From positions 37,319-101,318 of IMG/VR virus record IMGVR_UViG_3300031853_000004: a DNA stretch of 64,000 bases, one strand, 5' to 3'. Made by a program: the position numbers and the translations under genes. Below the pieces are notes generated by a model, which saw only the letters and a list, made by a program, of their open reading frames with translations, was not told the origin of the DNA and searched no databases. Below, piece after piece: positions 35,296 through 63,770 of the stretch; position 1 is the stretch's first letter; every line of letters begins with the position of its first letter. The stretch is from a virus. Taxonomy: Duplodnaviria; Heunggongvirae; Uroviricota; Caudoviricetes.

Positions 35296-35697
35296 TTAAT
35301 TATCATTGGTAATTGTTAATGGTTCACTTGGTAAAGACATTATTTCTTCATACATTGCTTTACCTAAACCATTCCCTCCAAGTTTTGCATATGCAGTTTC
35401 AATTTTTTCTACATATTCTTTTGTAGTCGTTGAAGCATATTTATTTTGTTTAGCTTTTCTGTATTCAGAAATTAGCTCAGCTCTTAACATTGCTCGCATT
35501 CCGGCAGTCATTGAATCATGTCATTCAGTATCAAGTTCACGATTTTTTTTCTGTTCTTCACGTGCCTGTTCTCTTTTATTATCAAAGTCATCCAATTTTC
35601 TACCCATGCCTCTTTGCATTAAAAAGATAATCAGTGGCACTAAAAAGATTTCAAGCAAGTTAAGGACTGCGGTCACCGTTGAATCCAATGGTACCAC
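35296..35697 (-). CDS. membrane-anchored small protein (N-terminal TM; one TGA)
   Basis: AGGAAAGAGG RBS then GTG 35697; extends ORF 35296..35511 upstream through TGA 35521. Confidence 0.4.
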
Positions 35698-35713
35698 CTC
35701 TTTCCTTTCTTTT

Positions 35714-36124: not shown

Positions 36125-36149
36125 TATAAGTCCTCCTATCTACTTTAAA

Positions 36150-36815: not shown

Positions 36816-36834
36816 GATGTACCCCTCTCTTCTT

Positions 36835-37092
36835 TTATTTTAATTGGTTTAAAATAGTATTTGGATCTACTCCTTTTTGAGCAGCCAAATTATAGAAAGC
36901 AGTCTTAGCATCTCCACCATTTTGATTTATATAATTTACTATACCTTGAAAATTAGGATTATTTGTTAACATTTTTTCCATAGCTTCTGTTGGATTAGAA
37001 GAATTTTTTATCTGTTTCATTAAATCCAATAGAGAGTTAGAATGCGGAGCTACTGACTGCTTATTAAAAGAAGAAAAAATAGGATTACTCAT
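36835..37092 (-). CDS. hypothetical protein
   Basis: ORF with RBS. Confidence 0.4.
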   Translation of the reverse strand: MSNPIFSSFNKQSVAPHSNSLLDLMKQIKNSSNPTEAMEKMLTNNPNFQGIVNYINQNGGDAKTAFYNLAAQKGVDPNTILNQLK

Positions 37093-37805: not shown

Positions 37806-37807
37806 AA

Positions 37808-39204: not shown

Positions 39205-39387
39205 TTATAAACTATTCCAACCTGCAATATCCTTTTGACCTTTCCACTTTCCATCCATGTAAATATCAGCGACAAGTTTATTATCTGCTCTCAATGTAAA
39301 AAGCAGTATAACACCGTTACTAGCAGTAAAATGGGCACTAATCGGATTCGTTGTTGTGGAGGTGACACCAAACTTATCCACCGAATT
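39205..39387 (-). other. cassette segment 6 (NSVDKFGVTSTT...), begins at repeat copy 6
   Basis: Open in the S-V frame for 60 codons to TAA 39205-39207. Confidence 0.4.
39378..39387 (-). repeat. cassette-boundary repeat copy 6 (AATTCGGTGG)
   Basis: 9/10 match; its first nt pair is part of the TAA stop of the upstream fibre gene. Confidence 0.55.
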
Positions 39388-40075
39388 ATATTGATGCTAA
39401 ATAAGTTGCTTGTCCATACCAATGTCCTCAAACATTCCCGCAATATCAAGGCATAGCTTTCCCATCTGTGCCAAAATTTATATTAGCTAATACTGTATCA
39501 GCATTTCCATTTGCTAAAACAATAGTTCCACCGACTAAAGCTTTAGGAAAATTGGTTCCAATTACAGCTGTGTTATTAGATGAATATTTACTTTTAAAAT
39601 TAAAATCATAAGTAACTTGAACAATAGCATAACTATTACAGTTTTGTTTTCTTCAAGCAAGGGTAGCTCCACTACTAATATAACTACCATGCAAAGTTCC
39701 ATTTCCAGATGAGACCCCCATATTATAAGTAGTATTATTATCTTGTTGGGTAAAAGTAAATTTGCCACCAGAATATCTGGTAGCAGTAAAAGTAGTGCCT
39801 GAACGAGTAATACTTTTTATTGCATCTGGATATGTACTATTGTTATCCTGTTGAGTGAACGTAAAAGTTGTACCGTTAGCTCTAGTTGCCGTAAAAGTAG
39901 TTCCACTTCTTGTTATATTTTTTATACTATCAGAAGTAGAAGCTTTACTAGCCACCGAAGACTCTAAAGCTGTCACACGCGTATTGAGTGCCGATACTGC
40001 GGATAAGGTGTTAGCGTCTAATAAATCATAAGTTGTACCATTTACTGTTACTTGAGATATAGTATTATTTGCCAT
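39386..40075 (-). CDS. tail-fibre protein with internal 33-aa duplication (one TGA at 39653); candidate constant region of the cassette system
   Basis: AAAGGAG RBS; duplicated IK(N/S)ITRSGTTFTATR..FTFTQQDNN(S/T)TY; TAA stop overlaps repeat 6. Confidence 0.5.
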
Positions 40076-40164
40076 ATCTTATCTCCTTTCATTTTAATAT
40101 ACTTTTTATATTAAATAGAAGGAGACACAATGGTTCCTTCTATATCATTTTATTTCCTAAAGTC

Positions 40165-42486
40165 CTAAACAGGACTAACAACATTACTAAAACTTAAAAC
40201 ATAATCAGTGGTTCCCGCAGGTTGAGAAGTTGGTTGAATAGTATTAATAGATATTTCTGCTCTTGGAGCGCCAATATTAACTCTAACTTCTTCAGCAGTT
40301 GTACCACCAGTCCCTCCAAGAGAAATAGGTAAGATTCCAAATTGTGGTTCTATATTACTACCAGTAGAATAAAAGGCTCCTTTGGAACTGCTAATTTGTT
40401 TTAAGCCATTATCTTGATTACCAACTACAATAGCATTATTTACAAAACCTGTTTTCCCAGTACCACCTTGTTGAACTGGCAATGTGCCAAAATGCGGAGC
40501 ATCTGTTGAGTTAGTAGCATATAAAGCTCCTGAAATAGTTTCAATGCTACCAATGCTATTATTTTGACCTTGACCTAAAAGAATCTGATTTCTAGTGAAT
40601 CCAATTTGACCAGTTCCTCCAAGAGTAATAGGTAATACACTAACAGTTTTTACTGGATCAGTTCCATTGCCTAAAAGTATATTATCTAACGCAAATGAAG
40701 TTTGTCCGGTTCCACCTTTAGAAACCTGAACTGTTTGATTAGCAATATTATTTACATATGTTTCTGTTGCAAATTGATAATCTTTTTTAACAGTTAATAC
40801 TCTATTTACATAAGTTAAGTCAGAGACTGCATTTCCTGAACCAGATTGAATTATAGAAGCAATATTGCCATCTTGACCTTTAATATTGGTTAAAGAAAGA
40901 TTTAAAACTTTCTTACCATCTTCATCTGATCAACTCGCTGATCCAGTCGGGTCGGAAGATACATCACCAGGTGTTACAGTTAAATTAACTTCTGGTCTTA
41001 ATTGCGGCATCGGACCTTGAATGCCTTGTTCACCTTTGATCCCTTTAAAATCAAAATGTAACTTTTGTTTAGTATTATTATCATAAACTGATGGTGTTAT
41101 CGTAACTCTAGGATTACCTACTGTATTATCTACTGTCCCATCCGCGCTATCAATAACAACTCCCATATTTTTAAAATTAAAAGTTAAATTTTGTTTACGA
41201 GTATCAGATCCATCATCAATATTTTCTGTATCAATATTTACTTGCGGAACTCCATATTTTTTATCTATTGTAGCAGAATGTGTTCCAAAATCCATAGGCT
41301 TTCCCCGAGGTAAAGTAAAACTTAATTTAGGATGATCTAATTGTGTATTATCTATGCTAACTTCACCTGTTTGATTTCAAGGAATTATTGACACATTTTT
41401 TTCAACTACAAACTCTGGTTGAGTTGGAGACATATCAGTGATAAATATTAACCTATCATTTCCTAAAGATGAATCAATTAATTCTAATGGTCTGTAATAT
41501 AATTCACCATTAGTGGGATCAGATTGAGAAAGAATTAATAAAACAAAAGTACCTAGAGGAATTCCAGATGGATTTTCTTCATCTTCAACGATTTCTTCAT
41601 CTAAAGCCGCATACATCTCTTCTTTAGAGTTAAAAGTTCTTGAAATTCTAAAAGAATCTCCTTTATCTCCTTTTTCTCCTTGTGGAATAGTAACTATGTA
41701 AGTTGTCTTTTTGATAACCTCAGAATCTTCTTCATCGAATTCATCTATCTTTTCAACTTCTACGGAATTTCCTGATTTAAACTTAAAATCAACATTTGCG
41801 ACTTTGCCTTGAGCCCCTCGCGGTCCTACAGGTCCTATTCCACCTTGATCGCCTTGTTCTCCTTTAAAATTAGAAAAAACAAAATCAATATCTGTAGTAA
41901 AGAAATCTTCATCTTCTACAGTATCGCCCATAATGACTTCTACGTTAGGTTCTCCGCCGTCCTCTACCACGGTGGCCCGCACTTCTCCAATTTTACTATC
42001 TTTACCTCTTGGACCAATAGGGCCAACATTACCAGTTTTACCTTGAGGAATGTTTAAATATAATATTAATTTAAATTTATTATTTAAAGTTTCAACTATT
42101 TCTACTCTACTCTCTTGGATGGGGTCGTCACTCTCTACTGGAATAACCTCAACGCCTGCAATAGAATCTTCTGTTAAAACTTTTTTATTGTCAATTTTTA
42201 TATTTTTTAGAAAATTAAAATCATTTTCTGCATTTATCTTTACATCGCTATTACTAAATTTTTCAACAGTAATAGGAATTAATTTCTTTTTATCCTCCGC
42301 AGTCATCAATCCTGAATTTTCAGAAGTAGCTTCTGGAATTACAGGAGTAACTGTGTATCTATTATTATTTAAATCTACTTTTAAAGAAGCTATATTATTT
42401 TCTTGTAAAACAAAATAGATAGCTCCTTCTTCTATCGTCGCAGGTAATTCTGCAACGGAATGATAAAATTTTATATTATTTGCCAT
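40165..42486 (-). CDS. large tail-fibre protein with collagen-like Gly-X-Y stretches (773 aa, two TGA)
   Basis: GGAGG RBS; ORFs 41377..42486, 40930..41295, 40165..40482 in one frame; the 448-nt gap was translated by hand and has no stop; GPIGPRGKD and GEQGDQGGIGPVGPRGAQG. Confidence 0.55.
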
Positions 42487-46146: not shown

Positions 46147-46575
46147 CTAATCGCTAATACTTTCTCAAGTATTAGCATTTGCAATTAGATTATATTTATC
46201 AGATGAATTTTTTCATCTATAAATACCATCATCAGTATAATACAAAGTATTACCTATACCCTCTTGCGGAAAATCTTCTTCTTTTTCCGCTTCTACTACT
46301 GAACTATTTTTAGAGGACGAAACTTTAGTTCAGCGTTGATTCCATCTTCAAAGAGTCTCAGTTTCTTCTACCCAATAGAAGCCAATTATTGGAAAAGGAG
46401 TCGCAGCTCTTTGAGCATCTGTGTCGAAACTTTTAATCATTTGATAATAGAATCTTTGCCCATATAAATCCATTGCAATTGTGGATAATTCTGGAACGAA
46501 AATAATTTGACCATCTTCTACAGGCAAATCATTCATCTTTGCAGAAGTGGTATAAACAAATTGTACTGTAGCCAT
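46147..46575 (-). CDS. hypothetical protein (about 142 aa, about five TGA)
   Basis: AAAGGAGTGG RBS; extends ORF 46348..46575 through TGAs to TAG 46147. Confidence 0.45.
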
Positions 46576-46586
46576 TTACCACTCCT

Positions 46587-47582
46587 TTAAATAAATTCTT
46601 TAATAGTTAACATTTTAGCTAAGTCATTTGTATGTCAAGTTTTTACATTATCTTCAACTTGTCCAATAGCATCGACTAACTCTTGACGAACCGCGTCTAT
46701 ATTTTCATCTTGCTCTTGGATTGCGGCGCTTATTGCTTCATTCATTTGTTCTTCAGTTACTCCGCATTGACATTGATGTTCTTCAATTGCCTCTGCGATT
46801 TCTAAAGCACTCTGCGCGACTCTGTCAATTGCCGCAACCACATTTTCTTCGCGATCCATCCTTTCTTTCAGTTCTTCAATTTCTTGATTCGCTTGTGCAA
46901 CATCATCTTTAGCTTCTTGAGCGATATCTCTAGCATCTCTAGCTACATCTGTTAAATCAACAATTGTATTTAGAGCTTCTCTAGCAGTTGTTAAAGCTTG
47001 TTCGGCAATCTCGCGAGCCTGAGTAGAGACATCCTCAGAATTTTGAGCTATACGCCGCACATCCATAAACTCCAATTGCATATCTTCAAATTCAATCTTC
47101 TGATTTGCCATTTGACGTTTCATTTCATCAGAAAGAGTTGTTAAAGATATAACAGCTTTTTGGAACTCTGAAAAATCATCTGTTGCAGTATATCTTGAAC
47201 CATCATTAGGATTCATCAATACATGTATCATAAAATTAGTAGAAGTTGCAATACTTACACTATCAACTAATTGAATACAAGCTAAAACATTTCCTTCATA
47301 TAACATTGATTTAGGAAATTTTATCTCTCAAGTAGGAGGAAAATCTTCATCATCGTCATTTATAATATGAGTAAAAACATTATAGCCTTTTATATCAACT
47401 TCTTGATGATACCAAGAAAGATATACCTTTGTATCCTCGGTTAGTTGTGCTGCGGCTTCTTGTGTAAAAATAATTCTTAATGTACGACCATTTGCGTCTC
47501 CCGCGCCTACAATAACTGGGTCAGGTATATTCTGGCTTAAAGATTTCATATTAATAACAGTAGTTTTTAACTCATCAGCCAT
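46587..47582 (-). CDS. coiled-coil protein (scaffold/assembly-like; two TGA)
   Basis: ORFs 47328..47582 and 46635..47306 in one frame; long acidic heptad-rich helix; TAA at 46587. Confidence 0.45.
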
Positions 47583-48651: not shown

Positions 48652-50925
48652 TTATCTCCAAACATCAACCAATTCCATTTCAGAGTTTTTATTTGGACTA
48701 ACTTCAAAATAAAATCCTTTTCTATGTATAGCATAATCTGACGGAATTTCTTGTCCATTCTCTTTAACCTTTAATTGCATAGAAGCATCACTGCTTGACC
48801 AAGAGCCCGCATATTTTCATCCACGTCTATTTTCACTAGTTCCATTTGATTGTCCTTGGAAATCATAAAAATAAGAATCACCTTTATGGAAAATAATTTG
48901 TCCCATTCTATCTTCTATTGGAATAGCATTTAAATCATCGGCTTCTCCGATTTGATAAATAAAAATATGTCCGTTCATATATGGATTTTTTTCTTTATCA
49001 TTAACTATTCAACTGCTATTTAAAATATCTAAAATTTGTTCAATATTAAGATTATCTCAATCTAAAGGATTTTCTCCAATAGCAATTCTATATGCATCGT
49101 GTCTAGAAGTATTTAATTCAGAAGCAACTCTAACTCCATTAACCGTCTGCTTTACGACCCCTAAATCCTGTCACCAAGATCAATCTTCTTCTTCAGTTCC
49201 AATAGAGTCAGGTAAGTCTCCACCTTTATATCAAACAGCTCCATCTTCTTCGATATGAATATATCTAATATTTTGAATATAAAATTCTCCTTCATTATCT
49301 GCATTACCTATATAACGATATTCGGAAGAAGAATATAAAACATATAAATGTCCATCATTTCCTACAAACATATCTTCAATAAAATTTAAGAAAGTAGGAT
49401 TTTCAAAACTTCTATACTCTTCTTTAGATTGATTCATATAGGGTTCAAGAATTGCATTAACAGGATCTGTATGATATTTAATTTCTTTAGTTTCTTCATC
49501 TATAGCAATCCCATCTATATGAAATAATGAAAACCCTGGTATATCTTTAGGACGTGTCTCATCTGTATATCTTGCTTGTAACATTTTTTCAGTATAGTCA
49601 GAATTATTAACAATTTGAAGAGACTCTAAAAATCTTAAAGGAGAAAAGTTCTTCTCTTCCCCAGTATTATAAGTAATCTTAAAAGAGTCTAAAACATTAT
49701 TTTCTTTACTAGAAAACATTTCTGTTTTATTAATTCATTTTAAAGTATTAAGAGTTTCACTATTCCCAGATGAATATTCAATATTAAAAGAACCATCATC
49801 TTCCAATTTAATATTTTGTATGTCAGTAATTTTACCAAGATAACAAGTAACTATTTTAGTTTTATTATCTGTATCATAATCTTTATCATACATGTAAAAA
49901 GTATAAACAAGAATAGAGCTGTCCGCACTTAAATTATCTTCTTCAAATTGCGGATAATCACCTTGATAATCTCTAATATCAAACTGACCTGTTTCACTAT
50001 TATATAAATCTTTATAATCATAAAGAATTTCTGTTTTTTCAGAGTTTGCATTAATAAAATCTCCAAAAGAAACTCTTCTTATAAAACCGACTTGGTTACC
50101 TTTTGTTCCTCTTGGAATACCAATATTCCATTTTTGATAAAAAGGCTGTCTACCATCTAAAAATTCATTTTCATTAATAAAGTTAGTATATAAAGTATTT
50201 TCTTTTCAATCAATATCTGAAAAATTAAAATCAAAGATTGTATAAGGAACTTCAAATCCTAAATATACATAAGTTTCTTGGTCTTCCCCATCAATGTTAT
50301 TTCTTACATTTACTCAAGAATATTTTATTCCTGTTTGATATTCGCCTGTTTCAGTGTCATATCCAGGGACAAGACCATTATCTTTTTTAGCTAACAGCTT
50401 TTGAATATTACCGCCATTATCTTTATAATTTAATTCATTTATGTCTTCTACATATGTATCATCTTGAGATGCGCCATCTTCATTAATAGGATAAATATAT
50501 TCTGAATCTCCAGCTTTAGTGTAAGAATTTTTTACTCTTGTAATCATACTTCCAAGAGAACCAATCTCTACACGAGGATACCCTTCGGATGGTCCTACAA
50601 TTCTACCTATATATTCTCCATGTAAAGTTCCGCCATCTATTTGAATTTCTGATTCTTCTCTTGGAAGAACTCTGCGGAAAAGCTTGCCATTATTAGGATT
50701 CCTTTTATTCGTTGTATCAATAATAGCTAGTTGTCCATATCAAACTTGCTCATATGAACTATCTGCAAAGCATCTCTCCATTGTTTGTTCTTTTAAGACA
50801 TTATCTGCTATCCCATCATTTACTGCTTTTTGATATGCAGGATCATTAGTGTCTACATATTTAAATCTTGCTTTAACAACTGGGGAAACGCCTTGTTTAC
50901 CACCATAAAAACTTTCTAAAGACAT
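48652..50925 (-). CDS. large late structural protein (757 aa, many TGA), baseplate/tail-like
   Basis: GAGGGGG RBS; ORFs 50740..50925, 50314..50547, 49231..49719 in one frame; 48661-49230 translated by hand to TAA 48652; Trp-rich stretches (EEDWSWW). Confidence 0.5.
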
Positions 50926-50939: not shown

Positions 50940-51914
50940 TTAACTCGTTTTATATTGATAATCTAAAGAAAATCTATCTTTAGCACTTTTTACGACCATA
51001 CAAAAATTAGTTATATCAAAATCGTTTAATTCATAATAACCACTTTGACCGACCCGAATTTCTTCTCCATTTATAGCCATAATAGAGTCGGCGTGAGATC
51101 ATACTCCAATATTGCTAAAAGAAGAAATATCGTTTGTTCCGAAGTTAATATTATTAACCATATTAACTAATCTATAACATTGAACATCAACTTTAGTTGG
51201 ATCAATGTACAAACCTTTATATTGTTGTCCATCTTCGCCTTCATATGATACATCATCGTCATATGAATTTCTATTTAATTCTACTAAAATAGAATTAAAA
51301 GCTTCACCAGAGACTTTGTTAGAAAAAACAAAATCAAAGTAAACTAAATCATCACTTTCATTATCTTTTCAAGTATGATTTAATAGAATGTCATTTCTGT
51401 ATAAAATTTCTATATCATTATCATCTGATTTTTTAATATAGTAATTCCCATCTTTATAATAAACACCATTATTTTGTGTCTCTGACCTGCTGTCTTTTAC
51501 CACAACTGCAATTGGCTCTGCTTCTTTATCAAGCCCTCCGGTCGGATATAATATTACTCTACTAAAACTTAAACTTCCAGATGAGTCTCTTGGAACAACA
51601 AAACGTTTTACTTCTTGATATTGATTTCTATTTACAAAATAAAAATTTTCAGAGTCTAATCCTCTTAATAACTTTAAATCAAAAGTCATATTGAAGGAAA
51701 GATTACGTGGTATACCAAGCCTTAAATAGTATGACTCATTTAATGAAAAAGGATTATTTAAATCTCCATACAATACTATATCTTGATAATTAATAGTGCT
51801 TGATAAACTAGGTGTTACAACCGAATGAGGTGTAAAACTTAAATCATTCATATATTTAGAATAAGGATCTGAATATCTAATTTGACCCATATTGTAAGAA
51901 ACTGTACTCGCCAT
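50940..51914 (-). CDS. late structural protein (324 aa, two TGA)
   Basis: AAAGGAGGT RBS before ATG 51914; TAA 50940. Confidence 0.5.
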
Positions 51915-51926: not shown

Positions 51927-54224
51927 TTATAATCTTTCCGCGACTTCATTTAATACTACTGACATATTAGCACCAGGACCAAAAGATAAATTAATATTTT
52001 GAATCATGAAGTCTCCATAGGTATTTGTACTATTACTGCTTAATTCAACTCTACTATTAGGAGCTAAATAAAACACTGGGATAGACGTAATAGAAACTGT
52101 CTTTTGATATCTTGTGTGACAAAAAAGTTCATACCTAATAGCTTCATATGCACTGTTCTTATATCCCCCAATATCAAGATTAGAATATATCTCATTACCA
52201 ACTTGTGTTCACGGTTGAGTATTTAAAATACATTCATGTCTTTGTAAAGCTAATAACTTTGTCTCTTTAGTTAATTTCTCTGGTTGCCCGCCAAAAACTT
52301 CTCTATATTTATTATTGAGTTCACTTTCAGTAAGTAGACCCGCAGTATTTTCTGTCCAATTCTCCTCTGGATTATCTTTATTTAAAAAAATAACATTTGG
52401 AATCTCTGGAATAAAGAGACAATTAACTTTATCATCTACTACAATATCTTGTCTGCGGCCAATCGCTTGTATACTATACTCTCCAAGAGCAGCAGAGTTA
52501 GCATCAATAAAATCTAAGAAATAATTGCCCTCTGTCAAACCATATCTAATAATTTTATCATCTTCTCCAAAGAAATGTTGATTATTAGGATCTAAACAAT
52601 ATTCTAATGGTCAAAAAGCATTAAGTTCTTGATAGTAATAGCCAGCGTCCACACCATTGTTCTCAGCTTCTAATCCTTGTAAATATAGTTCTGTTCTTCA
52701 ATCTCTTGAATAATATTTTATTGGAGAAACTAGTTTAGACTCTTTATCCTCATTTATAAAAACTAGTTTTTTATAAGTAGTCCCATCCCAATAATAAACA
52801 ATATTATTAACATAATATAATTTATCAAAATTACCTACATCTGGTAATTTATTCATATATTGCACAATACCTAGTTTGTTTACTTGCTTAATATCATTTT
52901 CTCTAGTATCTGTGTAATAAACAACATTTTCATGCACACCGTAATATGCACCTTTATTATCTACATCTATAATCTGCGGCTTGTCGTCAATTGCTAAATG
53001 ATATCTAACAGTATATTTTATATCAGAGCTAGTCCCTTGCCGCAATCCTTCTATAATATAATCATTTTTAATATTTTGATATTGCGGAGTTACTGTGATA
53101 GAAGTTACATTAACATCGTCAGTAAAAGAGTACAAGGTTTTTTCATTTGTTACCTCTATTAAATATTGATTTTCAGATTGCTCATCTAACAGAAAATTGC
53201 CCCCACCAAATTTTATTCTTCTTCCGGGGTTCTGCATTTCTTCTTCTATGATTTGTGCTTGAGTAATATTTAAATAATTTTTAATTTCTCTAAAAATAAA
53301 AACACCAAACTCATTAAAAAAATATTCATAATTTCCTAAGATATTTTTTATTTGATCCAATATAGATGTTATTGTATTACCAGCAGCTCCTACTAACTCA
53401 TCTAATACCACAAAATCTTTATATATATAACCGACATCTTCTCCTGTTGTATATTCTTGTCATGAATGATCTCCTGGATGATTATCTGTTGTATATATCC
53501 AATTGTCCGTCTCTGTCTCTGCGCTAATATTTTTTCCATATAAGTTATTTTTTCCTGTCCATTTCATCACTTGACGTATTCTTAAAGGAACATCTTGAAT
53601 GATAATGTTAGCAATATCGATTCCGCCATAATGATTAACCAACTCAAGAATAATATTATAAATTAAAACTTTTTGTTGAGTTCATTCTCCACTTGGTAAC
53701 TGAGTATCCATCATATCAAATCTAACTGAAGCAGGAAGTTTTCCACCTATATCTCCATTTAAAAGACACATTTTATCTTTTAGAGAAATATTTAAATTAA
53801 TTGCAGAAGTACTGGAAGAATTTAAAGAAAAATCTGATATTAAAAATATACCTTGAGGGAATCATAATATCGGTCAATCTAAATATTGATCAGTTTCATT
53901 CTTTACACCAATTTCAATAAAAACTTTTTTATTTAAAGAAAAATCCATATTTAATGAATCAATATTATATTCTTCTGCGCTAACGGTACAAGAAAGACTG
54001 CCAGTAACTCTAACAGGAGAGGCTCCATCTTTTGATAAAGAGCCTCCTGAAATAATACCTTGAACATCTTTTAAAGGATTTTCTTCTCAATCCAATAAAG
54101 TAATTTGTATATATTGCCGTTGATTCACAAAATTATCTAGTTGTTTTAAAAAATTTCTTTTATTTTGTTCCTCATTTAAATTATAAACATATTGTTCTTG
54201 AAGATATGGATATTGTTTTCTCAT
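51927..54224 (-). CDS. large late structural protein (about 765 aa, several TGA)
   Basis: AAGGAG RBS; ORFs 53460..53642, 52698..53411, 52209..52538 in one frame; 51921-52208 translated by hand to TAA 51927. Confidence 0.5.
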
Positions 54225-54334
54225 TTTTTGCTCCTTATCTTCTATTCATATTTAATATTGACAATGTTGCCACGATAATTTACCATGCCATAAACTGGAA
54301 CATCCGCCAATATTAATGTTTTATTTTTTTCATC

Positions 54335-57300
54335 TAAAAAAGTTACGTCATATCAACTTTGATCAATATAATATATTTTATATTTTTTAGAATCTCCATT
54401 TTTAAATCCATATATTGTATTATATTCAGGATTTCTAATATTATCAGTTGATAAGTAACCATCTATTGCTGGAATAACAATATCATCATTAATATCTACA
54501 ATATAGTTGCTGATATCTGTTGTTCCATTAATTACAACCCTTGTATCGGTTTGACCAACAAAAGTTTTATACCAAAGCAAATCTTCAGATTGACCTTCTA
54601 CAGACTCATCTAATGAAAATTCTCATTCTTCCAGGAAAAATCTTTTCTTTTTAGAGTGTAAAGTTTTATCATATCCGTCTAAACCAATAACAGTGTGTGA
54701 ACCATCGTTTACAAGTTCTACTTGAATCCACTCTTTTTCTGAAGTATAAAGCATTAATACAACGTCATTATCTTTATAAACACCATAAATTGTATTAATA
54801 CTTGGATTTACTATCTGATCAATAGAATCATATGGATAACTATCTTCACCAATAAAATTTCTTACGATCTGGTTTCTTTCTGGCGTACTCATTCTATCAT
54901 TAAATACAACTAAAACATCTAAAGCTTCTCCTGAATCAATACTATATCACCCCAATGAGTCAATTGGAGTAGCTTGGTAACCCGCAGTTGATTTATCAAA
55001 GATAAAATTGTCCATTTTTTGATCATTATAATCTTCGTTATCTTTTCTAAACATTCTTCGTCCAAGAAAAACTACATCTTCTATTGGAAAATCAGTCATT
55101 AAATTATATACACCAGTTCGACCAACTAAATATTGACTATATTGTTCTTCATTTTCAAATAAAATTCCTAACATAGTATAAGAAGTTCCATCAAAACCAA
55201 AAGCAGTAATTTTATCAAGATATTGTTTCTCCAATAGACCGTTAAAACCTTTTTTCTCTGTTGTCGTTCTATAATATTCATATTTATTTTTAATTTCATC
55301 TGCGATTGTCTGTCCTTTTATTCACTTACCAGACAATTGACCAACAATTTTTTGAGCAATTTCTGATGCGCTTGGAACAGAACTTTCATCATACTGTCTC
55401 TTATAATTTAATTTAAAATCTAAAGTAGCTACAGCATTATCGTATAAAATTACATCAGTAATTTCTAAATTACTTGGTACTTGATAATACCCTTTTTCTT
55501 CTACAAAAATTATTACTTCATTTTCTAATTTTTTAGATTCAACGTAAATTTTTAAACCAACTTTATAACCATAAATTAAATTATTTACATTAGATGTACT
55601 AGTCATTAATTCTTTAGAACTTACATCATATCATTGAGGAGTTGATGTAAATTGTATATGTAAATCCTTTAATCTGTATGTTCCTGCAATTACTTTATAA
55701 TTACTATATGCACCCTGATAAAATAAACCATTATAGTAATTATCTAAAGTATATGACTCTACACTTGGCTTTTCAATTAAATCTACATTATCAAAAATTA
55801 ACGCATCATTAGTTCCTGATTTCTTATATATTTGAGAAATAACTTTTTCTTCAATTGCTCCTTCAGAATCATCTCCGCTTTCTTCTTCAGAAGATGATCC
55901 AGAGCCTGCATTAATATATTCACTATACTCATCTGGAATATCTATAATTCCAAGAGAAGAAAGAACATCTAAAGAATATCCATCTCCAACTTCATAAGCT
56001 GTCATTGATATATTATAAGTGCGGCGCCCTATTTGTGCGTTTGGAGTTAATGATATATCAGTTAACATAACAACTAAATTTCCTTCTGACATTGAACGTA
56101 GAAGTTTTGGTTCTCCATCATTTAATCAACTTAAAGCTTCTTCTCTAAATAGTCTTTCAAACCATCAATTATCTTTAGGAGCTAAGTCATGTCGAGTTGT
56201 TAATAAATGTTCAGTTGCTTCTTGAGTATATTCATTTGTCGCTATATCATGATTGTATGTAAAAACATTATCTGCAATAGTATCATTTCTAACTTCATAC
56301 TTACCATCCATGAATCTGTCATAGTCATTCATTTCAGAAGCAAAATCTCTATCATTCAAAAACTTTCTATTAAAGTCAGATTCAGATGTTATTAAACCAG
56401 ATATTGTAAATTTTTTATAATTCATTTGAGCATTCTCTGCAAATTTAGGATACTTACTTCCTAAAGTATTAATTACTTGTCTATTAACAACTGCGGAATA
56501 GCTAGTTATTTGAGTATTATATCTTAAAGCTATTTGTTTACCTTGTCTGTAGATTAACATATCATAAAAATCTGGATAAACAATTTGACTAATATAGGTT
56601 TTTGTCCAAGCATTATTTTTCTTTAATCTATATTGACAAGCATATTTATACGTAGTTAAACTTCCAACGGTTGGATCAATAATTGTTTCATTTACTTGTC
56701 CAATATTTTCAGTACAGCTAATCAACTCTCAATTTTTATAATTATCTAAACTAGTTGCTCTCTTTACATAAAGGAAACCTTGCGGAAGTTCTTGTGTAGT
56801 TGTAATAGTAAACTCAACCATACCATCTTCTTCTGTCACAATTTTATTCTCAACAGACTCATATTTATCTAATGCTATTTTCTTAAATTCAAAAGTAGGA
56901 GTAAAAGATAGCGCATCAAAATTTGCAGTTTTTAGTTGATAATTTTTGCTAAAATAGAATTGATTTTTTGTAATAACTTCTATTTTAACTGTAAAAAGTT
57001 TATCAGGGTCTGCATTTGTTATATCCGCAAGTCAATAAATTCTATTAGGATCAGTATTGTTTGTTGTATATACTCAATCATCAGTTTCATCAATTATTTC
57101 GTTATTGTCGTCTGAAATAATCGTTATACGATATCTTTGCAGAGTTTCCGCGTTTTTAGTAGATAAAATTTCTTTATAAGAAAATATGACACTTCCTACT
57201 ATTGGAACGATACCAGGCTGTACTGTTCTAACTTTAGATATCACATTTCCGCTTTGGATATTATCAAATTCATCATCAAAATCTACCATTCCAATTTGTA

Positions 57301-57784
57301 TATTTGGAATAGCTTTTATTAAACAAACACTTGACCATTCAGAAAAATATTGTCTATTTTCTTGTAAATATGTTGTAGATGTAGGAGTAGTTGTAGAGCT
57401 ATCTAATCTAATTTGTACTTTGTAATAACTATCTACCACAAAACCATCTTTATCTCCCTTGAGAAGTTCTCTTGGAATATCAATAGTACAAACATTATTA
57501 ACGGCATCTACTGTTAAAACACTTGTACCGTTTATATTAAAAGGAATGATTCAAATGTTATCAAGTAAAATTTGATCAACACTAGCAGGTAAAGCTTTTG
57601 AATTATTTTCAAAAGCACTTTGGTTAGTTCTTTGATTAACTAAAGACACATGTATTTTTTTAATATCTCCTAAACTATTATAAGGAGAAAAAGAAAAGGA
57701 AACGGGAGCCGGCCCTTCATATTGAAAAGCCGACATGAAAGTATCAATTAAAGGAGGATATAGTGTACTTACTATAGTAGCCAT
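54335..57784 (-). CDS. giant late structural protein (about 1149 aa, at least 9 TGA)
   Basis: GGAGG RBS; eight ORF fragments in one frame; three gaps translated by hand contain only TGA; TAG stop at 54335. Confidence 0.5.
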
Positions 57785-58262: not shown

Positions 58263-61200
58263 TTAACTTGCAGAAAAAGTAACTGATTTATCAACACCAG
58301 TAACCTTTCCTTCTGAATTATAAACAACATTTCTTACATAACCACCATCTGGATTATTAATAGTATAATTAACATCTTTCTTTAGATAATTGTCTAAATC
58401 ACTTGATTTAGCATAGTCATTTAATTCACTCTCTGTTACATAATTTGATAAAGCACTATTAATAGCACTAGAAACTTCTCCAGATATTGCATTTCATATT
58501 TCTCAAGATGTAGGCATGTTTACTGTTAAAGTTCTTGTTCCAAAAAATGGTCTACCATTAGTTAAATCTATTAATGGTACAGTTATTCAATCGCTGCCGC
58601 CAACACCTTCTACTATAACATCTCCACCTGAGATTCCAGTACCACCAGCAGTATTAGAAATATTAGAGCCATCACCACTAAAGGTAGCTGCATTAATATT
58701 ATTATCACATGTAATATTATTATCTACTTTTAAACCATAATCATTGCCTAAAAAATTACCATTAATCTTTAACCCCATTGCAATTTCTTGATTCATACCG
58801 GTGTATCATTTAGCAATGCTATTGCTTGGTTCAAATTCTACTCAAACATTACCAGCATTTCCAAGAGCTAAATCAAATGGGTGACTTGAGCCTCCGCTAT
58901 AGTGCGGACGTAGTTTCAACGAAACACTTTTATTTGCTGTATCGTTTGATATTAAAATAATGCCATAATCACCAGCATCATTATTTCCTTTTCCTGTTAA
59001 TGTTAGTCTTTTATTTGATGTAACACTAATAGCTGCATCAGACTTTAATTGAGTAGTTTGTCCAGTATTATTCGTAATAGCTAACATATTATTGTTATTA
59101 TTTCCAGTTCTTAAGTACGTTCATTCTGTTTGAAGTTCAACATTACTACCATTCTGTCTAGTTAACTTAATATTATTATTTCCTGTTGTATTAATATTAA
59201 TAGCACCTACTGAATTAATAGTATAAGTTCCCCCAGAATTTATTCCTATTGCTCCTGAAGCGCTGAAAGTTTGAGCGGCACTAGACAATGTGAAATTTTT
59301 CCTAGCACTTGATAAACCTGAATTAATAGTAAATGCTTCAAATGTTGTAATAGAACTAGCTGTACTTCTATTAAAATCTATATTTGTATTCCCTACTTTT
59401 CCAGAAAAATTATTCTCACTAATTTTTATATAAGAATCAGAAGTTTTTGCATGAGAATTATTATTATCTGCATATAAATCAATACTTTTTCCGTGTATAC
59501 TAATCGGCCTTACATAATCACTATTATTATTATACCCCGCTGTGATATACAATTGCCCAGAAGTATTATTATCTGTATTATCTATAAAAGCTTTAAAGAA
59601 AGATGTACCAATTTGGTCAATTCCTCTACCTTTTGAAACTGACAAATTTAAACCAACATAAGTTGGATTAGGACTTCCAAAAGCTTTAAGTAAATTAACT
59701 CCCATAGTTGTAGTTGTTGGATTAGTAGAAGAAGATGGAGCAGACTGTACCTTATTTGCAACTAATTCTCCTTGATTATTAATACCACTAAGAAGGACTC
59801 TTGTTCAATTATTATTTTCTTTATAATGTCTATAAATTCCAAATGCTCTATAATTTTGTGGGTCTAATTGTACACCAATAGAATCGCCTTCTTTAATTTG
59901 ACTAACACTGGCATCTCCCCCACTTAAATCATCGTCGGTAATAGTTCTACTTTTTACATATATATAAGGTTTGTCGGCAGAAAGTAAAATTCCTCGACTA
60001 CCGCCAGCTATATCCTTTGTATGGTCTGTCCCATCCACGGAATATGCATTTCCTAAAGTATTTTCAACTTGATCATTATCATTATTAATAGAATAAAACA
60101 ATGAACGTCTTCCTAATCTTCATCCACCAATGATACTAACATCGCCTGGGCGTAATTGAATTTCGCCTTCATTATAATTGTCAATCTCGACTCATTTACC
60201 ATTAATAAATTTTCTAACCTTTTTTTCATCAGTATTTAAAGAAGGATAACCGAAAGTAGCATCTCCTGTCTCAGCGTCAATAAAGAATGAACGCATACCA
60301 TTTTTATATCCTAATAATCCAGTATATAGATGCTCTTCTCCAGAGCTGTAATCATCAGCTTGCCCCATTACAACACCAGTAAAAAGATTTGTAGAAGTAT
60401 CTTTATAGCCAGCCCCAATTTGCGGAGCCATGATATAACCTTCATCTTCATCAATAGTAATAGAATTTCCATCTCAAGCATTTAAAGACGCCAAACCAAA
60501 AGTATTTAAAGACATACTAATTGGAGCACATACTGTTGCAAATAAAGTATTATTTGAATAAATAATAGCTTCAATATAATTATTAGTTACACTGCCATTA
60601 AATTCATCATTTGGCAAAACAAATACTTTTGTTTGAGTAGAATTTGAAATAGTTGTTTTAGGACTACCATTTTTTTCCAATAGAAGCGAAAAATTAGGTT
60701 TCGTTTCATTCGTAACATATCCACCTTTAGCTCTTCAATCAATTCTATAATTCTTTGGAAGATTAATTAATTCTAATCCTTGATTATGATTATACAAAGG
60801 ATCGCGGCCGTCCGCATTATAAATAATCTCTTTAAGATATGTATTATTTTTAATTGCTATTCTATTGGAATCAAAGCGTGGAACAGCACTATTATATCTA
60901 ATATACGGCAAATTAAAGAAAGCATAATATGATTTAGATTCATATTTCAATTCTGCTTTTAAGATATTTTGTCGATATTGTTTTGCTCCTGTTGTTCAAA
61001 TTAAATTGTTATCAATTATTTGAATATTATGTCCATATTTATTAGATGCTGTGCTAGTATTTCCTGCTATATTTCATCTAATGCTATCAGGATTTACCTC
61101 TTGATTTTTTTGATAAAGTTTAGGAATTACAATTCCATTATTATCAGTTAAATTAAAAGGAATATCTTTGGCAACGTTAGAGCCTGTAAATAAAATTTTG

Positions 61201-63770
61201 TTATCAGTACCATAATATAATGTTAATGGTTGCTCCGCATAAATAGTATTTTCTACTCTTGGAATAATTTTAGCAACCACATCTGTACCATTAGTTCCGT
61301 TGTTTCCAACTTTAGTAAAAGTTAAATTAGTATTTGCATACCGAGTAGTATCATTAAAATCAACCTGACACCTTATTTGATTGTCTATAGAATTATAATC
61401 ATATAAAGATTTTATGTCAAATACTAATTCATTTCCTTCATACATATTTGCAATACTTGTTGCAGGATCAATTTTAGCATTGCTATATTGTAATAAAGTA
61501 TCTGATGTAGGAAGGTATCATTTTACTCTATAACTGGTATTTTGAATTTCTATATTATTTGGTGCAAATAAATGTACCCTCAATGGCAAAATTTCTTGCG
61601 GATCTTTATACTTGGCTGCATTAGGTGCATTACCATATTCATCATATTGAAATACTTGATCGCCATTCTCTATAAAAATTCTAAAATCACTAGGACTTAA
61701 AGATTTAAAGTTCTCTAGTGTTATAGATGTTTTTCCAATAGAAGAGAAACTATCAGTCTCTTTCTTTCTGTATTCTATATAACATTCAAAAGTAACATTC
61801 GCGGCAGTTCCTATATTGGACATTGGATATTTTATTCGTGTTGCTTTACTTTTATTACTGGCTGACGTTATATCTCTATCACCGCAATATCATTTAATAT
61901 TTTTTAATAATTTACTTGAATTAGTATAATTATTATATGTACTTATACTAATATTAGTTAAATCTAATTTATTAATTTCATCTAAAAATACTTTTTGATT
62001 ATTACCATCAATTAAAGCTCATTTAAAGTTATAAAGGGGACTATCAATTATTTCAACTAATTCTTCATCCTCTTCTTTGTATATTGTTAAAGTTGGTATA
62101 CCCGCATCAAAAGTAAAATTAGTACCTAAATCCGACTCTAATGTAAATACCTGTCCGCCATTATTATATACAATAAAATCGTATCTTAAAATAATTGGTG
62201 TTTCTTCCCCTAAGTAAACCACTGTACACCTGTAGTGATTTTCATAACAGAGATTATCTTTTGCAGTTAAAGTTAATTGATAAGAATAATTATTTTGTAT
62301 TTCTTTTCAACCAATTCCACCATATATATTATAATTTGCATTCGCGGGAGATGTAACGGAGTCGCTCTGCTTAAATCAATATATCTTAGTTTTTGAATTT
62401 TTAGTCAAATCTTCATAATATTGTTTTAAGAAAGTAGCTTCCGCAATAATTTCTTGATCATCGTCTTCACTATCAAAAATCATTCCAGTGTCAGTTGCTT
62501 CAACCTTTAATTGATATCCTGAGCTAATTTCTGAGATAGGCTTCATTAAATACATTTGAACATTTCTTACTCAAATATCTGGATCACCTTCACGTCAAGT
62601 TGATTCCTTAACGCTATCTTCTATAAAGCCTTCTTTATAAAATAATATACTATCTATTCTTAAAAGATTTTCTAAATCAATTTCAAAAACTCCATATTGA
62701 CTCATCCAAGAGGAAAAAGAAAAAGGATTGCCAATCATATCATTTGAACTTAAATAATATGATACATTCTTTTCTGCGGGTTCTCCTATCTGAACGTTTC
62801 TTCACTCTAATCTAGAGTCTAGCATATTTTGCGTTGTAGAGGCAGTCCGCATATTATTAATCATCGTTATATATTTTGAAATTAAATCTTCAACTTCGGC
62901 AGTATATTCAACTTTTTTATTATTCTTAAAGACTCTTTCCAGCTCTTGGATTTGACTAATTAATTCATCAAATTTTCCATCCGATTTAATTAAATTTCCC
63001 ACGGAATTATTCTTTATAATTGATATTAATTGCTCATCACAAGTTTTTAAACTTGTAGAATTTGCTGCTATTTTTTCTTTATAATAGTCAAATATAGCCC
63101 CTTGAGTATCACCAATTCCAGAAGCTAAATTTTTAAAAACTAAATTAAAAACTAATCCATACTCACCAGTTGCTCTATTCTGTTGTTCTGTGGTTAATTG
63201 AGTCATAAAATCTGCTCTGAACATCACTGCTTGAGCATCTTTTTTGTACAAAGATAATTCACCCAGCGCAGGAGTAAGTTCTGATTCAGTATCTCCGCCA
63301 TATAAAAAATTATATCTATGATCAATTTTATTAATTTTATTTCCATTAATACTTTCTTCTGTCGGACTGTGATATGAATACAAACCAACTTTTTGTGCAT
63401 TGTTTTCTAAAATATTTTTTCCTATAATACCATAGTTATTAGATAAAGCTGAAACAACAGAAATCTGTTCATTGGTTGCTAACTTACTGGCTTGACCTAA
63501 GATAAATTTTTCTTTAGAAAAATCTCCTTGCGGGACTTGTACATATACAGCCATTCTTGGTAAATATGCGTCGTTTTCATTCTGAGCTGTGGCATTAAAA
63601 AAGCCACCTTCATATTCCACTTTATAGATGTTCCTTTTATTGGCAACACCAACTTTGGAATTAATAATAGCTACAATTGTTTTATCTAATTGTAACTGAT
63701 CGATGCGCCGTTGCGCTATTGTGTCTATAGCTTCTAAAATGCTATTCCTTATATCATCGGTTTTGCTCAT
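58263..63770 (-). CDS. giant late protein (about 1835 aa, 15 or more TGA) with beta-helix-like Ser/Thr/Asn/Gly-rich C-terminal region; tail-fibre/host-adhesin candidate
   Basis: AAGGAGG RBS; eleven ORF fragments in one frame; the 579-nt and final gaps translated by hand with no TAA/TAG until 58263. Confidence 0.5.

What the first reader, a model, noticed from the sequence alone, without database searches (positions are those of the whole stretch)
35296..63770. TGA is a sense codon (Trp) and is concentrated in late genes: stage-biased code-4-like recoding
On the minus strand almost every six-frame ORF ends at TGA. The next ORF continues in the same frame after a gap with no TAA/TAG (checked by hand for about 10 gaps, including a 579-nt and a 448-nt gap). 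Genes have an RBS+ATG only at the true 5' end and end at TAA/TAG, often overlapping the next RBS. Joined this way the late strand resolves into genes of about 1835, 1149, 766, 757 and 773 aa. TGA also appears sparsely in plus-strand early genes (3167, 11531, 19551/19928, 26893, 29509, 698..1294). The large replication genes have none: DnaE is 1244 aa with 16 TGG and 0 TGA, and the topoisomerase, primase and helicase genes are intact ORFs. Identity of the amino acid: in the duplicated zinc module of gene 11531..12448, TGA in module 2 (TSL*TCKCDCG) aligns with the TGG Trp of module 1 (VKWKCLCECG). The same holds between Cys-rich paralogues 19738 and 19928, and TGA sits next to TGG in W-rich runs (EEDWSWW). 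So Trp rather than Gly (code 25). No tRNA-Trp(UCA) is present in the window.
Basis: partly seen in the sequence, partly recalled or inferred. Interest (0 to 1): 0.8.

Follow-up and report, generated by a model that had tools for sequence, protein, structure and literature searches.

The report
TGA-as-tryptophan recoding in phage late genes
This is part of a roughly 140-kb gut or rumen phage that reads the stop codon TGA as tryptophan, mostly in its tail and baseplate genes; this kind of stage-biased recoding is already described, but chasing its missing decoder turned up an apparently undescribed class of phage suppressor tRNAs that carry a second, anticodon-like arm.

Summary
With only TAA/TAG as stops, the minus-strand fragments at 35.3-63.8 kb fuse into genes of 1835, 1180, 765, 757 and 773 aa, and coding density rises from 0.67 to 0.93. 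The replication module barely changes (0.82 to 0.83).

In-frame TGA/TGG is 65/26 in late genes and 13/131 in early genes (Fisher p = 1e-23). Out-of-frame TGA is equally common in both, and TGA ends none of 66 called genes.

TGA means Trp. In 53 relatives with no in-frame TGA, sites opposite the window's TGA codons are TGG-encoded Trp. Some are invariant. Gly and Ser stay at background.

The phage belongs to a family of 125-147 kb Firmicutes-type gut and rumen phages that has recoded and standard-code members. This matches the published "Agate"-type recoding (Borges et al.), so it is a new member of a known kind.

No tRNA(UCA) lies in the window or in 10.4 kb of its own left flank. A 96%-identical sister strain and a recoded relative each carry one.

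About half of such IMG/VR tRNA(UCA) genes carry a covarying extra arm whose 7-nt loop copies the tRNA-Trp anticodon loop. Amber suppressors show the glutamine equivalent. I found no report of this in nature.

The parts
35296..63770 (-). Late (tail, baseplate and fibre) module written in code 4. 65 in-frame TGA against 26 TGG. All genes end in TAA or TAG.
   Evidence: Tail-fibre and unknown-function structural PHROGs. In relatives a tape-measure gene lies next to the 1835-aa homologue.
58263..63770 (-). 1835-aa tail or baseplate giant protein, 21 TGA / 1 TGG.
   Evidence: TGA codons 465, 488, 751, 1099, 1217 and others lie opposite Trp in 40-52 of about 50 non-recoded homologues.
54242..57784 (-). 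1180-aa structural protein, 11 TGA / 5 TGG.
   Evidence: phrog_30026. TGA codons 352 and 553 lie opposite Trp.
51927..54224 (-). 765-aa baseplate-like protein (weak DUF5048 match in homologues), 8 TGA / 4 TGG. This was the main test gene.
   Evidence: 2477 homologues. TGA codons 46, 121, 509 and 538 lie opposite TGG-Trp in 39, 53, 52 and 50 of 53 non-recoded homologues; the other sites are Tyr or Phe, never Gly.
50940..51914 (-). 324-aa structural protein, 2 TGA / 0 TGG.
   Evidence: Both TGA sites lie opposite Trp (39/40 and 31/41).
48652..50925 (-). 757-aa structural protein, 10 TGA / 4 TGG, containing EEDWSWW encoded TGA, TGG, TGA.
46147..47582 (-). Two late genes (142 aa with 4 TGA/2 TGG; 331 aa with 2 TGA/1 TGG).
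   Evidence: Trp opposite the TGA sites.
39386..42486 (-). Fibre-like genes (229 aa with 3 TGA; 773 aa collagen-like with 2 TGA).
   Evidence: tail-fibre PHROG. No non-recoded homologue covered these TGA sites.
2358..34367 (+). Early replication and nucleotide-metabolism module, readable in both codes: topoisomerase subunits, ATP-dependent DNA ligase, YorF, AAA_24, DnaB, RecJ-like, PolIII-alpha (DnaE), NrdD, dUTPase, tyrosine recombinase. 13 TGA / 131 TGG, and no TGA terminator.
11531..12448 (+). Early-block gene with two in-frame TGA (11558, 12038). The second aligns with the TGG-Trp of the duplicated zinc module.
29509..29970 (+). Gene immediately downstream of nrdD (guessed to be NrdG-like; no family search was run), with one in-frame TGA at codon 103.
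32706..33164 (+). Plus-strand gene with 4 TGA / 0 TGG, structural-like (phrog_3971). It shows that the bias follows the kind of gene, not the strand.
698..1294 (-).
   Evidence: Gene call on the identical contig L115.
16041..16227 (+). The only tRNAs in the window: a tRNA-like Ser(GCU) missed by ARAGORN (16041-16133) and tRNA-Ser(AGA) (16137-16227). Neither decodes UGA.

Best explanation
The window is about 45% of a roughly 140-kb tailed phage of the SPbeta/Enterococcus-EF1/phAss-1-like group of gut and rumen Firmicutes phages. In this phage TGA is a tryptophan codon and never a terminator.

The early replication genes are written to be readable under the standard code as well, with almost no in-frame TGA. 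The tail, baseplate and fibre genes have about 70% of their Trp codons as TGA.

The most likely mechanism is the published one. The host uses the standard code, so late mRNAs terminate at the first UGA until a phage-supplied UGA decoder, a tRNA(UCA) charged with Trp, has accumulated. Code change then acts as a translational timer or lock on virion genes.

Shown here:
- the codon distribution;
- the Trp meaning;
- the absence of TGA terminators;
- close standard-code relatives;
- tRNA(UCA) genes with Trp acceptor identity in a sister strain and in a recoded relative.

Inferred:
- that the host uses the standard code;
- that this phage carries its own decoder somewhere in the roughly 70 kb I could not see;
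- the timing function.
For: ORF fusion and coding-density gain occur only in the late block.

TGA/TGG is 65/26 late against 13/131 early (p = 1e-23), with equal out-of-frame TGA.

TGA terminates 0 of 66 called genes. The gene caller allowed only TAA/TAG stops, so the real test is the ORF lists: the only two early table-11 ORFs of at least 100 aa that end in TGA (11561-12040 and 29497-29817) continue in frame into a longer gene. In non-recoded relatives 15-18% of ORFs of at least 100 aa end in TGA.

In the baseplate gene, TGA lies opposite TGG-Trp at invariant sites in 53 non-recoded homologues. Pooled, 46% of aligned residues are Trp against a 1.2% background.

In six further late genes with TGA masked as X, 46% of aligned residues opposite TGA are Trp, against 60% opposite the window's own TGG codons. 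Gly is 3.8% against 4.0%.

The family contains recoded members (GC 0.26-0.30) and standard-code members. The closest cultured relatives by DnaE and by the baseplate protein are Enterococcus and Bacillus SPbeta-like phages and the TAG-recoded phAss-1.

The published Agate description matches: TGA-recoded lineage of about 127 kb, replication genes in standard code, structural and lysis genes recoded, standard-code relatives above 90% ANI.

A tRNA(UCA) with A1-U72 and G73 is present in sister strain L121 (96% nucleotide identity) and in recoded relative L134/L006. In that relative the baseplate gene has 12 TGA and 0 TGG, covering every conserved Trp.
Against: No UGA decoder was found in the window or in 10.4 kb of this phage's own left flank, even with a dedicated covariance model and filters off.

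At the spot where sister strain L121 has its suppressor, this phage's allele (L395) lacks it.

The host is unknown. Phage contigs of this family are binned with Bacilli, Erysipelotrichaceae and Mollicutes MAGs, so a code-4 host is not formally excluded.

A few early-block genes (11531-12448, 29509-29970, 698-1294) contain TGA. The early/late split is therefore a strong bias, not a clean switch.

Expression timing was not measured.
Confidence: 0.85

Rival explanations
1. The host itself uses code 4 (a Mollicutes-like gut Bacilli lineage) and the phage simply shares its host's code. No phage-driven code switch exists.
For: No suppressor tRNA in the 74 kb of this phage that I could read. Family contigs are co-binned with Bacilli, Mollicutes and Erysipelotrichaceae MAGs. 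GC is low at 0.31.
Against: In a 31% GC genome with a code-4 host, TGA should dominate Trp codons everywhere. Instead 17 early genes of at least 150 aa have 6 TGA against 99 TGG, with DnaE at 0/16, while out-of-frame TGA is as common as in late genes. A sister strain and a recoded relative carry their own tRNA(UCA), which a code-4 host would make unnecessary. MAG binning of 100-kb phage contigs is weak host evidence.
Confidence: 0.1
2. TGA is decoded as serine. The tRNA(UCA) genes of this group have a long variable arm plus G73, the bacterial SerRS identity set. The sister-strain tRNA also has a Sec/allo-tRNA-like skeleton.
For: L121:3419-3508 scores above the Rfam tRNA-Sec gathering threshold (49.7 vs 47 bits). 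It has a 6-bp D stem with a tetraloop and a possible 8/4 acceptor/T branch. Long V arm plus G73 is the SerRS identity set (PMC7609411; PMC5389517).
Against: Ser makes up at most 1.4% of the residues opposite TGA in non-recoded homologues, while Trp, Tyr and Phe together make up 70-97%. Invariant Trp sites are TGA in genomes that have no TGG at all in that gene. The V-arm loop copies the Trp anticodon loop, and position 1-72 is A-U as in bacterial tRNA-Trp.
Confidence: 0.03
3. TGA encodes glycine (code 25) or selenocysteine, or the interrupted ORFs are pseudogenes, assembly errors or low-level programmed read-through.
For: Code 25 phages exist. TGA is the Sec codon.
Against: Gly opposite TGA is 3.8%, the same as opposite the window's TGG codons (4.0%), and Cys is about 0. 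Sixty-five in-frame TGA, all in one frame per gene, yield full-length homologues of about 2500 database proteins. The same pattern recurs in independent assemblies (L001-L006, L084, L088). Twenty-one TGA in one gene cannot be passed by leaky read-through.
Confidence: 0.02

Closest known systems
TGA-recoded 'Agate' phages and other stage-biased stop-codon-recoded gut phages (Borges et al., bioRxiv 2021.08.26.457843; Nat Microbiol 2022)
   Same: TGA read as Trp. Genomes of about 127-154 kb with Firmicutes-type hosts, from cattle, pig and other animal guts. Replication genes in standard code, structural and lysis genes recoded. Very close standard-code relatives. Suppressor tRNA detectable in only about a third of code-4 genomes.
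   Different: Clade membership could not be tested: there is no TerL in the window and no Agate reference sequence in the tools. Here a few early-block genes also carry TGA, and this phage's own decoder was not seen.
phAss-1 / proposed Phassvirus group and Enterococcus phage EF1-like phages (PMC10607447)
   Same: Same baseplate protein family (29-30% identity over 97% of the query) and the same PolIII-alpha type (about 38% identity). Genome size about 136-142 kb. Recoding concentrated in virion genes.
   Different: phAss-1 recodes TAG to Gln and carries three tRNA(CUA) genes. EF1 and the SPbeta phages are not recoded. The window recodes TGA to Trp.
Genetic code 4 of Mycoplasma/Spiroplasma and their phages
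   Same: TGA is Trp and only TAA/TAG terminate.
   Different: In code-4 organisms TGA is the main Trp codon genome-wide (my own knowledge). Here it is nearly excluded from the early genes.
Engineered 'pseudo-anticodon' V-arm tRNAs (Mukai 2020, PMC7590224) and natural allo-tRNAs / tRNA-Sec-like tRNAs (PMC5389517)
   Same: A suppressor tRNA whose variable arm is shaped like an anticodon arm of the cognate amino acid. Mukai showed that such an arm can enhance aminoacylation by a synthetase variant fused to an extra anticodon-binding domain. The L121 tRNA shares the long D stem with tetraloop of allo-tRNA and tRNA-Sec.
   Different: The phage tRNAs are natural. Most have an ordinary 7/5 cloverleaf plus the extra arm, and they carry Trp (A1-U72, G73) or Gln (U1, G73) acceptor features. 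Their function is untested.

Membership tests
Translation table 4 usage (TGA = Trp) | In-frame TGA inside conserved protein-coding genes, giving full-length homologues when read through | tested here: met
Translation table 4 usage (TGA = Trp) | TGA positions correspond to Trp (not Gly, Ser, Cys or gaps) in homologues that do not use TGA | tested here: met
   Invariant Trp columns; 46% Trp pooled against 60% for the window's own TGG codons; Gly and Ser at background.
Translation table 4 usage (TGA = Trp) | TGA not used as a terminator | tested here: met
   0 of 66 genes, against 15-18% in standard-code relatives. The two early table-11 ORFs that end in TGA continue in frame.
Translation table 4 usage (TGA = Trp) | A tRNA with anticodon UCA and Trp identity | tested here: inconclusive
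   Absent from the window and from 10.4 kb of its own flank. Present in the 96%-identical sister strain L121 and in the recoded relative L134. About 70 kb of the genome was not available.
Stage-biased stop-codon-recoded phage (Borges-type) | Recoded codon enriched in structural and lysis genes; replication genes compatible with the standard code | tested here: met
   65/26 against 13/131, p = 1e-23. Functional annotation. No lysis gene was identified.
Stage-biased stop-codon-recoded phage (Borges-type) | Close relatives that use the standard code | tested here: met
   Among about 100 family loci, 53 distinct homologues have 0 in-frame TGA and 18 are recoded.
Stage-biased stop-codon-recoded phage (Borges-type) | Host uses the standard code | not testable with these tools
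   No host link. It is inferred only from TGA avoidance in early genes and from phage-borne suppressors in relatives.
Stage-biased stop-codon-recoded phage (Borges-type) | Late genes untranslatable until the code switch (timing) | not testable with these tools
   Needs expression or ribosome-profiling data.
Agate clade (Borges et al.) | Placement inside the clade on the large-terminase tree | not testable with these tools
   TerL is not in the window and no Agate reference sequence is held. megablast against GenBank phages found nothing.
Agate clade (Borges et al.) | Genome of about 127-154 kb from an animal gut, with TGA, TAG and standard-code members in one clade | tested here: met
   A protein encoded just left of the window on an overlapping contig of the same phage is recorded on a 143,542-bp contig. 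Relatives are 125-147 kb, many from rumen or gut samples. CUA and UCA suppressors both occur in the family's tRNA arrays.
Pseudo-anticodon-arm suppressor tRNA (class proposed here) | Cloverleaf with anticodon UCA plus an extra helix between the anticodon and T arms, supported by covariation | tested here: met
   46 distinct IMG/VR sequences plus L121. All five pairs of the extra helix show changes on both sides. Covariation score 0.649 against 0.188 in shuffles, 0/500.
Pseudo-anticodon-arm suppressor tRNA (class proposed here) | The extra-arm loop is a 7-nt copy of the cognate anticodon loop (N-U-CCA-A-A for Trp) | tested here: met
   36 of 47 have a stem of at least 4 bp closing exactly that loop, with 32 distinct stems; shuffles give a mean of 1.6 and a maximum of 6. 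A37 is 44/47 and A38 is 39/47. Gln analogue: 25 of 33 long CUA tRNAs have Y-U-YUG-A-N, against 0.65 expected.
Pseudo-anticodon-arm suppressor tRNA (class proposed here) | The arm is needed for charging by TrpRS or GlnRS | not testable with these tools
   Needs biochemistry.

The most novel reading that the evidence does not exclude
Phage opal and amber suppressor tRNAs solve the synthetase-identity problem with a built-in decoy. The problem is that TrpRS and GlnRS read the anticodon, which the suppressor has changed. The decoy is a covarying extra arm in the variable region whose 7-nt loop copies the cognate anticodon loop: U-CCA-A for Trp on tRNA(UCA), and U-YUG-A for Gln on tRNA(CUA).

The arm would present the expected anticodon to the host synthetase or to another anticodon reader, while the real anticodon arm reads the stop codon.

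This class makes up about half of the Trp-type tRNA(UCA) genes sampled in IMG/VR. It occurs in TGA-recoded relatives of this phage. I found no description of it in nature; only an engineered analogue (Mukai 2020).
Probability: 0.4. Interest if true: 0.85.

Novelty: new member of a known kind. Interest (0 to 1): 0.45.

Why it matters
For the window itself the practical point is annotation. Any table-11 annotation of this phage family shatters its virion genes, while table 4 restores them. The window is also a clean example of the published idea that phages use a code change as a lock on late-gene translation.

The wider value is the lead on the decoder. It is not known how standard-code hosts correctly charge phage suppressor tRNAs whose anticodon, the main TrpRS/GlnRS identity element, has been altered. 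The pseudo-anticodon arm gives a concrete hypothesis that can be tested by mutation.

It may also help explain why suppressor tRNAs are reported in only about 35-40% of recoded phage genomes. ARAGORN missed the L121 form entirely, and it and Rfam label others as tRNA-Sec.

Such tRNAs could also serve as natural scaffolds for genetic-code expansion.

Tried and rejected
Searches that gave nothing useful:
- megablast of 20 kb of the late block against GenBank phages: no match.
- The search for related loci with the 628-aa flank protein: nothing. With the TROVE flank protein: only distant hits.
- ARAGORN on 24 recoded structural loci: no tRNAs.
- JGI metagenome scan for the L121-type suppressor: two chance hits in high-GC DNA.

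Decoder candidates in the window, rejected:
- tRNA-Ser(AGA): the anticodon loop is CUAGAAA, so it is not UCA or CUA in any register.
- The neighbouring tRNA-like element: it reads GCU.

Hope abandoned: that this phage shares the sister strain's suppressor. Its own allele (L395, 100% identical to L115 in the overlap) lacks that block.

Interpretations rejected:
- Strand-specific mutational bias. Out-of-frame TGA is equal in both modules, and there are exceptions on both strands.
- Code 25, Sec, Ser and pseudogenes.

Literature searches for a natural pseudo-anticodon arm and targeted reading found only the engineered version. The library does not cover most subscription journals.

Full report
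**1. Observation**

The window is 64 kb with 31% GC. Under table 11 the minus strand between 35.3 and 63.8 kb is a row of short ORFs. With TAA/TAG as the only stops they fuse into long genes:

| Gene | Length | TGA / TGG |
|---|---|---|
| 58263-63770 | 1835 aa | 21 / 1 |
| 54242-57784 | 1180 aa | 11 / 5 |
| 51927-54224 | 765 aa | 8 / 4 |
| 48652-50925 | 757 aa | 10 / 4 |
| 40165-42486 | 773 aa | 2 / 0 |

Coding density in ORFs of at least 100 aa rises from 0.67 to 0.93 in this block. In the plus-strand block at 2.2-34.4 kb it moves only from 0.82 to 0.83.

Standard-code relatives used as controls do not change (0.93-0.95 either way). Recoded relatives behave like the window's late block (0.34-0.64 rising to 0.93-0.97).

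**2. Stage bias**

The plus-strand block encodes replication and nucleotide-metabolism functions:
- two topoisomerase subunits and an ATP-dependent DNA ligase;
- YorF, AAA_24, DnaB and a RecJ-like protein;
- PolIII-alpha (DnaE) and NrdD;
- dUTPase and a tyrosine recombinase.

The minus-strand block encodes tail-fibre, baseplate and other structural families. In relatives a tape-measure gene sits next to it.

In-frame TGA/TGG is 13/131 in 42 early genes and 65/26 in 24 late genes (Fisher p = 1.1e-23). For genes of at least 150 aa the counts are 6/99 and 59/21.

Out-of-frame TGA is equally common in both blocks (35 and 33 per 1000 codons), so mutation or composition does not explain the bias.

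The bias follows the kind of gene, not the strand:
- The minus-strand radical-SAM gene at 1281-2201 has 0 TGA and 4 TGG.
- The plus-strand structural-like gene 32706-33164 has 4 TGA and 0 TGG.

The split is not absolute. Genes 11531-12448, 29509-29970 (immediately downstream of nrdD) and 698-1294 each carry one or two TGA.

TGA never terminates a gene (0 of 66). The only two early table-11 ORFs of at least 100 aa that end in TGA continue in frame into a longer gene. In standard-code relatives 15-18% of ORFs of at least 100 aa end in TGA.

**3. Which amino acid**

The 765-aa protein has 2477 database homologues. The closest ones are themselves recoded: their genes contain 7-8 in-frame TGA. The Trp residues in those database translations are therefore circular evidence.

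I therefore fetched about 110 loci from IMG/VR and from GTDB genomes and split them by codon use. That gave 53 distinct homologues with no in-frame TGA and 18 recoded ones.

In the 53 non-recoded homologues the window's TGA codons 46, 121, 509 and 538 lie opposite TGG-Trp in 39, 53, 52 and 50 sequences. The remaining TGA sites lie opposite mainly Tyr or Phe, and one (codon 255) is variable. None lies opposite Gly.

Pooled over all recoded members, 46% of aligned residues are Trp, against a 1.2% background.

I repeated the test on six more late genes with TGA masked as X, using tblastn against the non-recoded loci. It gave 46% Trp opposite TGA and 60% opposite the window's own TGG codons. Gly was 3.8% against 4.0%.

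TGA therefore behaves as a synonym of TGG.

- The zinc-module duplication is confirmed.
- EEDWSWW is encoded TGA, TGG, TGA.
- In the 19738/19928 paralogue pair the TGA aligns with Leu, not Trp.

**4. What the element is**

The closest cultured relatives by PolIII-alpha are Enterococcus EF1/VRE9-type phages and Bacillus SPbeta-type phages, at 36-38% identity.

By the baseplate protein they are a 176-kb human-gut phage record, phAss-1 and the same Enterococcus phages. phAss-1 is a 136-kb gut phage that recodes TAG to Gln in its virion genes (PMC10607447).

Family contigs are 125-147 kb, and many come from rumen or gut samples.

Contigs nearly identical to parts of the window exist in ENA and Logan assemblies. 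A protein encoded just left of the window on one of these contigs is recorded on a 143,542-bp contig.

All of this matches the published description of TGA-recoded "Agate" phages:
- a TGA-recoded lineage of about 127 kb;
- a Firmicutes host prediction;
- replication machinery in standard code;
- structural and lysis genes recoded;
- standard-code relatives above 90% ANI.

Clade membership itself could not be tested.

**5. The decoder**

The window holds one standard tRNA, Ser(AGA) at 16137-16227. Next to it, at 16041-16133, is a tRNA-like Ser(GCU) that ARAGORN misses. Neither reads UGA.

Two overlapping contigs of the same phage extend the sequence 10.4 kb to the left:
- L115 has 1 mismatch in 5619 bases of overlap with the window.
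- L395 is 100% identical to L115 where they overlap.

They show a non-coding RNA region:
- a TROVE/Ro60 gene;
- tRNA-Gly, tRNA-Lys and tRNA-Pro;
- a ROOL RNA;
- an HNH gene with in-frame TGA.

There is no tRNA(UCA), even with a purpose-built covariance model and filters off.

A sister strain (L121, 96% nucleotide identity) has at the corresponding place an extra block: tRNA-Ala, tRNA-Pro, a mini-tmRNA-like element and a 93-nt tRNA with anticodon UCA. That tRNA has A1-U72, G73 and an encoded CCA end. ARAGORN misses it, and Rfam scores it as tRNA-Sec.

A recoded relative (IMG/VR 3300021426_000077) has a baseplate gene with 12 TGA and 0 TGG, with TGA at every conserved Trp. It carries a tRNA(UCA) with A1-U72 and G73 in its tRNA array.

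**6. An unexpected feature of these tRNAs**

Both tRNA(UCA) genes have an extra hairpin between the anticodon arm and the T arm. Its loop reads UUCCAAC or CUCCAAA, which is a tRNA-Trp anticodon loop.

A complete IMG/VR scan for the Trp-type UCA anticodon arm, blind to the variable region, gave 87 distinct tRNA-like sequences:

| Group | Number |
|---|---|
| With the extra "CCA arm" | 46 |
| Ordinary class I | 21 |
| tRNA-Sec-like | 20 |

In the 46 with the arm, A1-U72 occurs in 36, G73 in 44 and an encoded CCA end in 34.

In 36 of 47 (the 46 plus L121) a stem of at least 4 bp closes exactly a 7-nt loop N-U-C-C-A-A-A. There are 32 different stems. Shuffled controls give a mean of 1.6 and a maximum of 6.

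On a plain MAFFT alignment all five pairs of the extra helix change on both sides. The whole five-helix structure scores 0.649 against 0.188 in shuffles (0 of 500).

Many host contigs of these tRNAs are themselves TGA-recoded. For example, coding density rises from 0.43 to 0.90, from 0.29 to 0.84 and from 0.35 to 0.93.

Amber suppressors with the same anticodon stem show the analogue.
- 25 of 33 long-arm tRNA(CUA) have a loop Y-U-YUG-A-N, the Gln anticodon loop. Shuffles give 0.65.
- It is closed by covarying stems of 2-6 bp.
- U1 occurs in 16 of 25 and G73 in 21 of 25, as in tRNA-Gln.

An engineered "pseudo-anticodon" V-arm has been shown to help recruit a synthetase variant fused to an extra anticodon-binding domain (PMC7590224). 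I found no report of a natural one.

**7. How it most likely works**

Shown:
- TGA is a Trp codon and never a stop in this genome.
- It is concentrated in virion genes.
- Early genes are readable in both codes.
- Relatives include standard-code phages.
- Recoded relatives carry Trp-type tRNA(UCA) genes.

Inferred:
- The host terminates at UGA, so late proteins cannot be completed until the phage's decoder is expressed. Code change then acts as a timer or lock on virion production (the model).
- This phage's decoder lies in the unseen half of the genome.

Hypothesis: the extra arm lets the host TrpRS, which depends on the CCA anticodon, charge a tRNA whose real anticodon is UCA.

A caveat: a long variable arm plus G73 is also the SerRS identity set, and the L121 tRNA has a Sec/allo-like skeleton. 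The protein alignments argue strongly against Ser (at most 1.4%).

**8. Verdict**

The finding is real and correctly interpreted, apart from one minor supporting detail. It is a new member of a known kind of system, so its own novelty is modest.

The follow-up lead, pseudo-anticodon arms on phage suppressor tRNAs, lies outside the window. It is apparently undescribed and directly testable.

Noticed in passing
L121:3418-3513, L134:6090-6181, and 46 IMG/VR loci (e.g. L230:290, L213:1370, L232, L277): Phage tRNA(UCA) genes with Trp acceptor identity (A1-U72, G73) carry a covarying extra arm whose 7-nt loop N-U-CCA-A-A copies the tRNA-Trp anticodon loop. They make up 46 of 87 distinct sequences in an unbiased IMG/VR scan.
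   Followed up: yes
L154:17498-17587, L160:10704-10793, and L405-L511 (e.g. L413, L462): Amber suppressor tRNA(CUA) genes with a long variable region show the glutamine analogue. A short covarying stem closes the loop Y-U-YUG-A-N in 25 of 33, with U1 and G73 as in tRNA-Gln.
   Followed up: partly
window 16041-16227: Two tandem class-II tRNAs. One is tRNA-Ser with the unusual A34 anticodon AGA (16137-16227). Directly upstream is a tRNA-like Ser(GCU) with perfect acceptor stem, G73, a CCA end and a 4-bp anticodon stem; ARAGORN and the Rfam gathering threshold both miss it.
   Followed up: partly
L395:1412-2070 (same phage, about 9.1-9.7 kb left of window position 1); also L121:2317-2976: A full-length ROOL RNA (Rfam RF03087, 284 bits) sits inside the tRNA array of this phage.
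   Followed up: no
L115:6567-8015 and L115:11800-13400 (same phage, left of the window): A TROVE/Ro60-VWA gene, followed by several strong sigma-70-like promoters. These drive structured RNAs and tRNA-like fragments, including a weak tRNA hit at 12919-12991; weak YrlA hits (below gathering threshold) occur in L121 and L134. This suggests a phage Ro60/Y-RNA module.
   Followed up: no
L121:3260-3340 and L134:8661-8738: Elements of about 80 nt score above the Rfam tmRNA threshold (51 and 56.8 bits; gathering 47). They consist only of the tRNA-like domain, with no mRNA part.
   Followed up: no
L395:445-514 versus L121:1351-1420: The same tRNA gene in two 96%-identical strains differs by two bases in the anticodon loop and one elsewhere. 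This switches CUCUUAA (Lys, CUU) to CCGUUAA (Asn, GUU, with C33).
   Followed up: no
L395:2355-2762: An HNH homing-endonuclease-like gene next to the tRNA array contains in-frame TGA codons, so recoding also reaches mobile-element genes.
   Followed up: no
L126-L129 (e.g. L126:13511-13599): 89-nt class-II tRNA(CUA) genes with A73 and an ordinary long variable arm (Tyr- or Leu-like body). They hint that some relatives may read TAG as something other than Gln.
   Followed up: no
window 33516-34367: A tyrosine recombinase/integrase (8 TGG, 0 TGA) lies at the end of the early block. It could mean a temperate lifestyle or a Xer-like resolvase.
   Followed up: no
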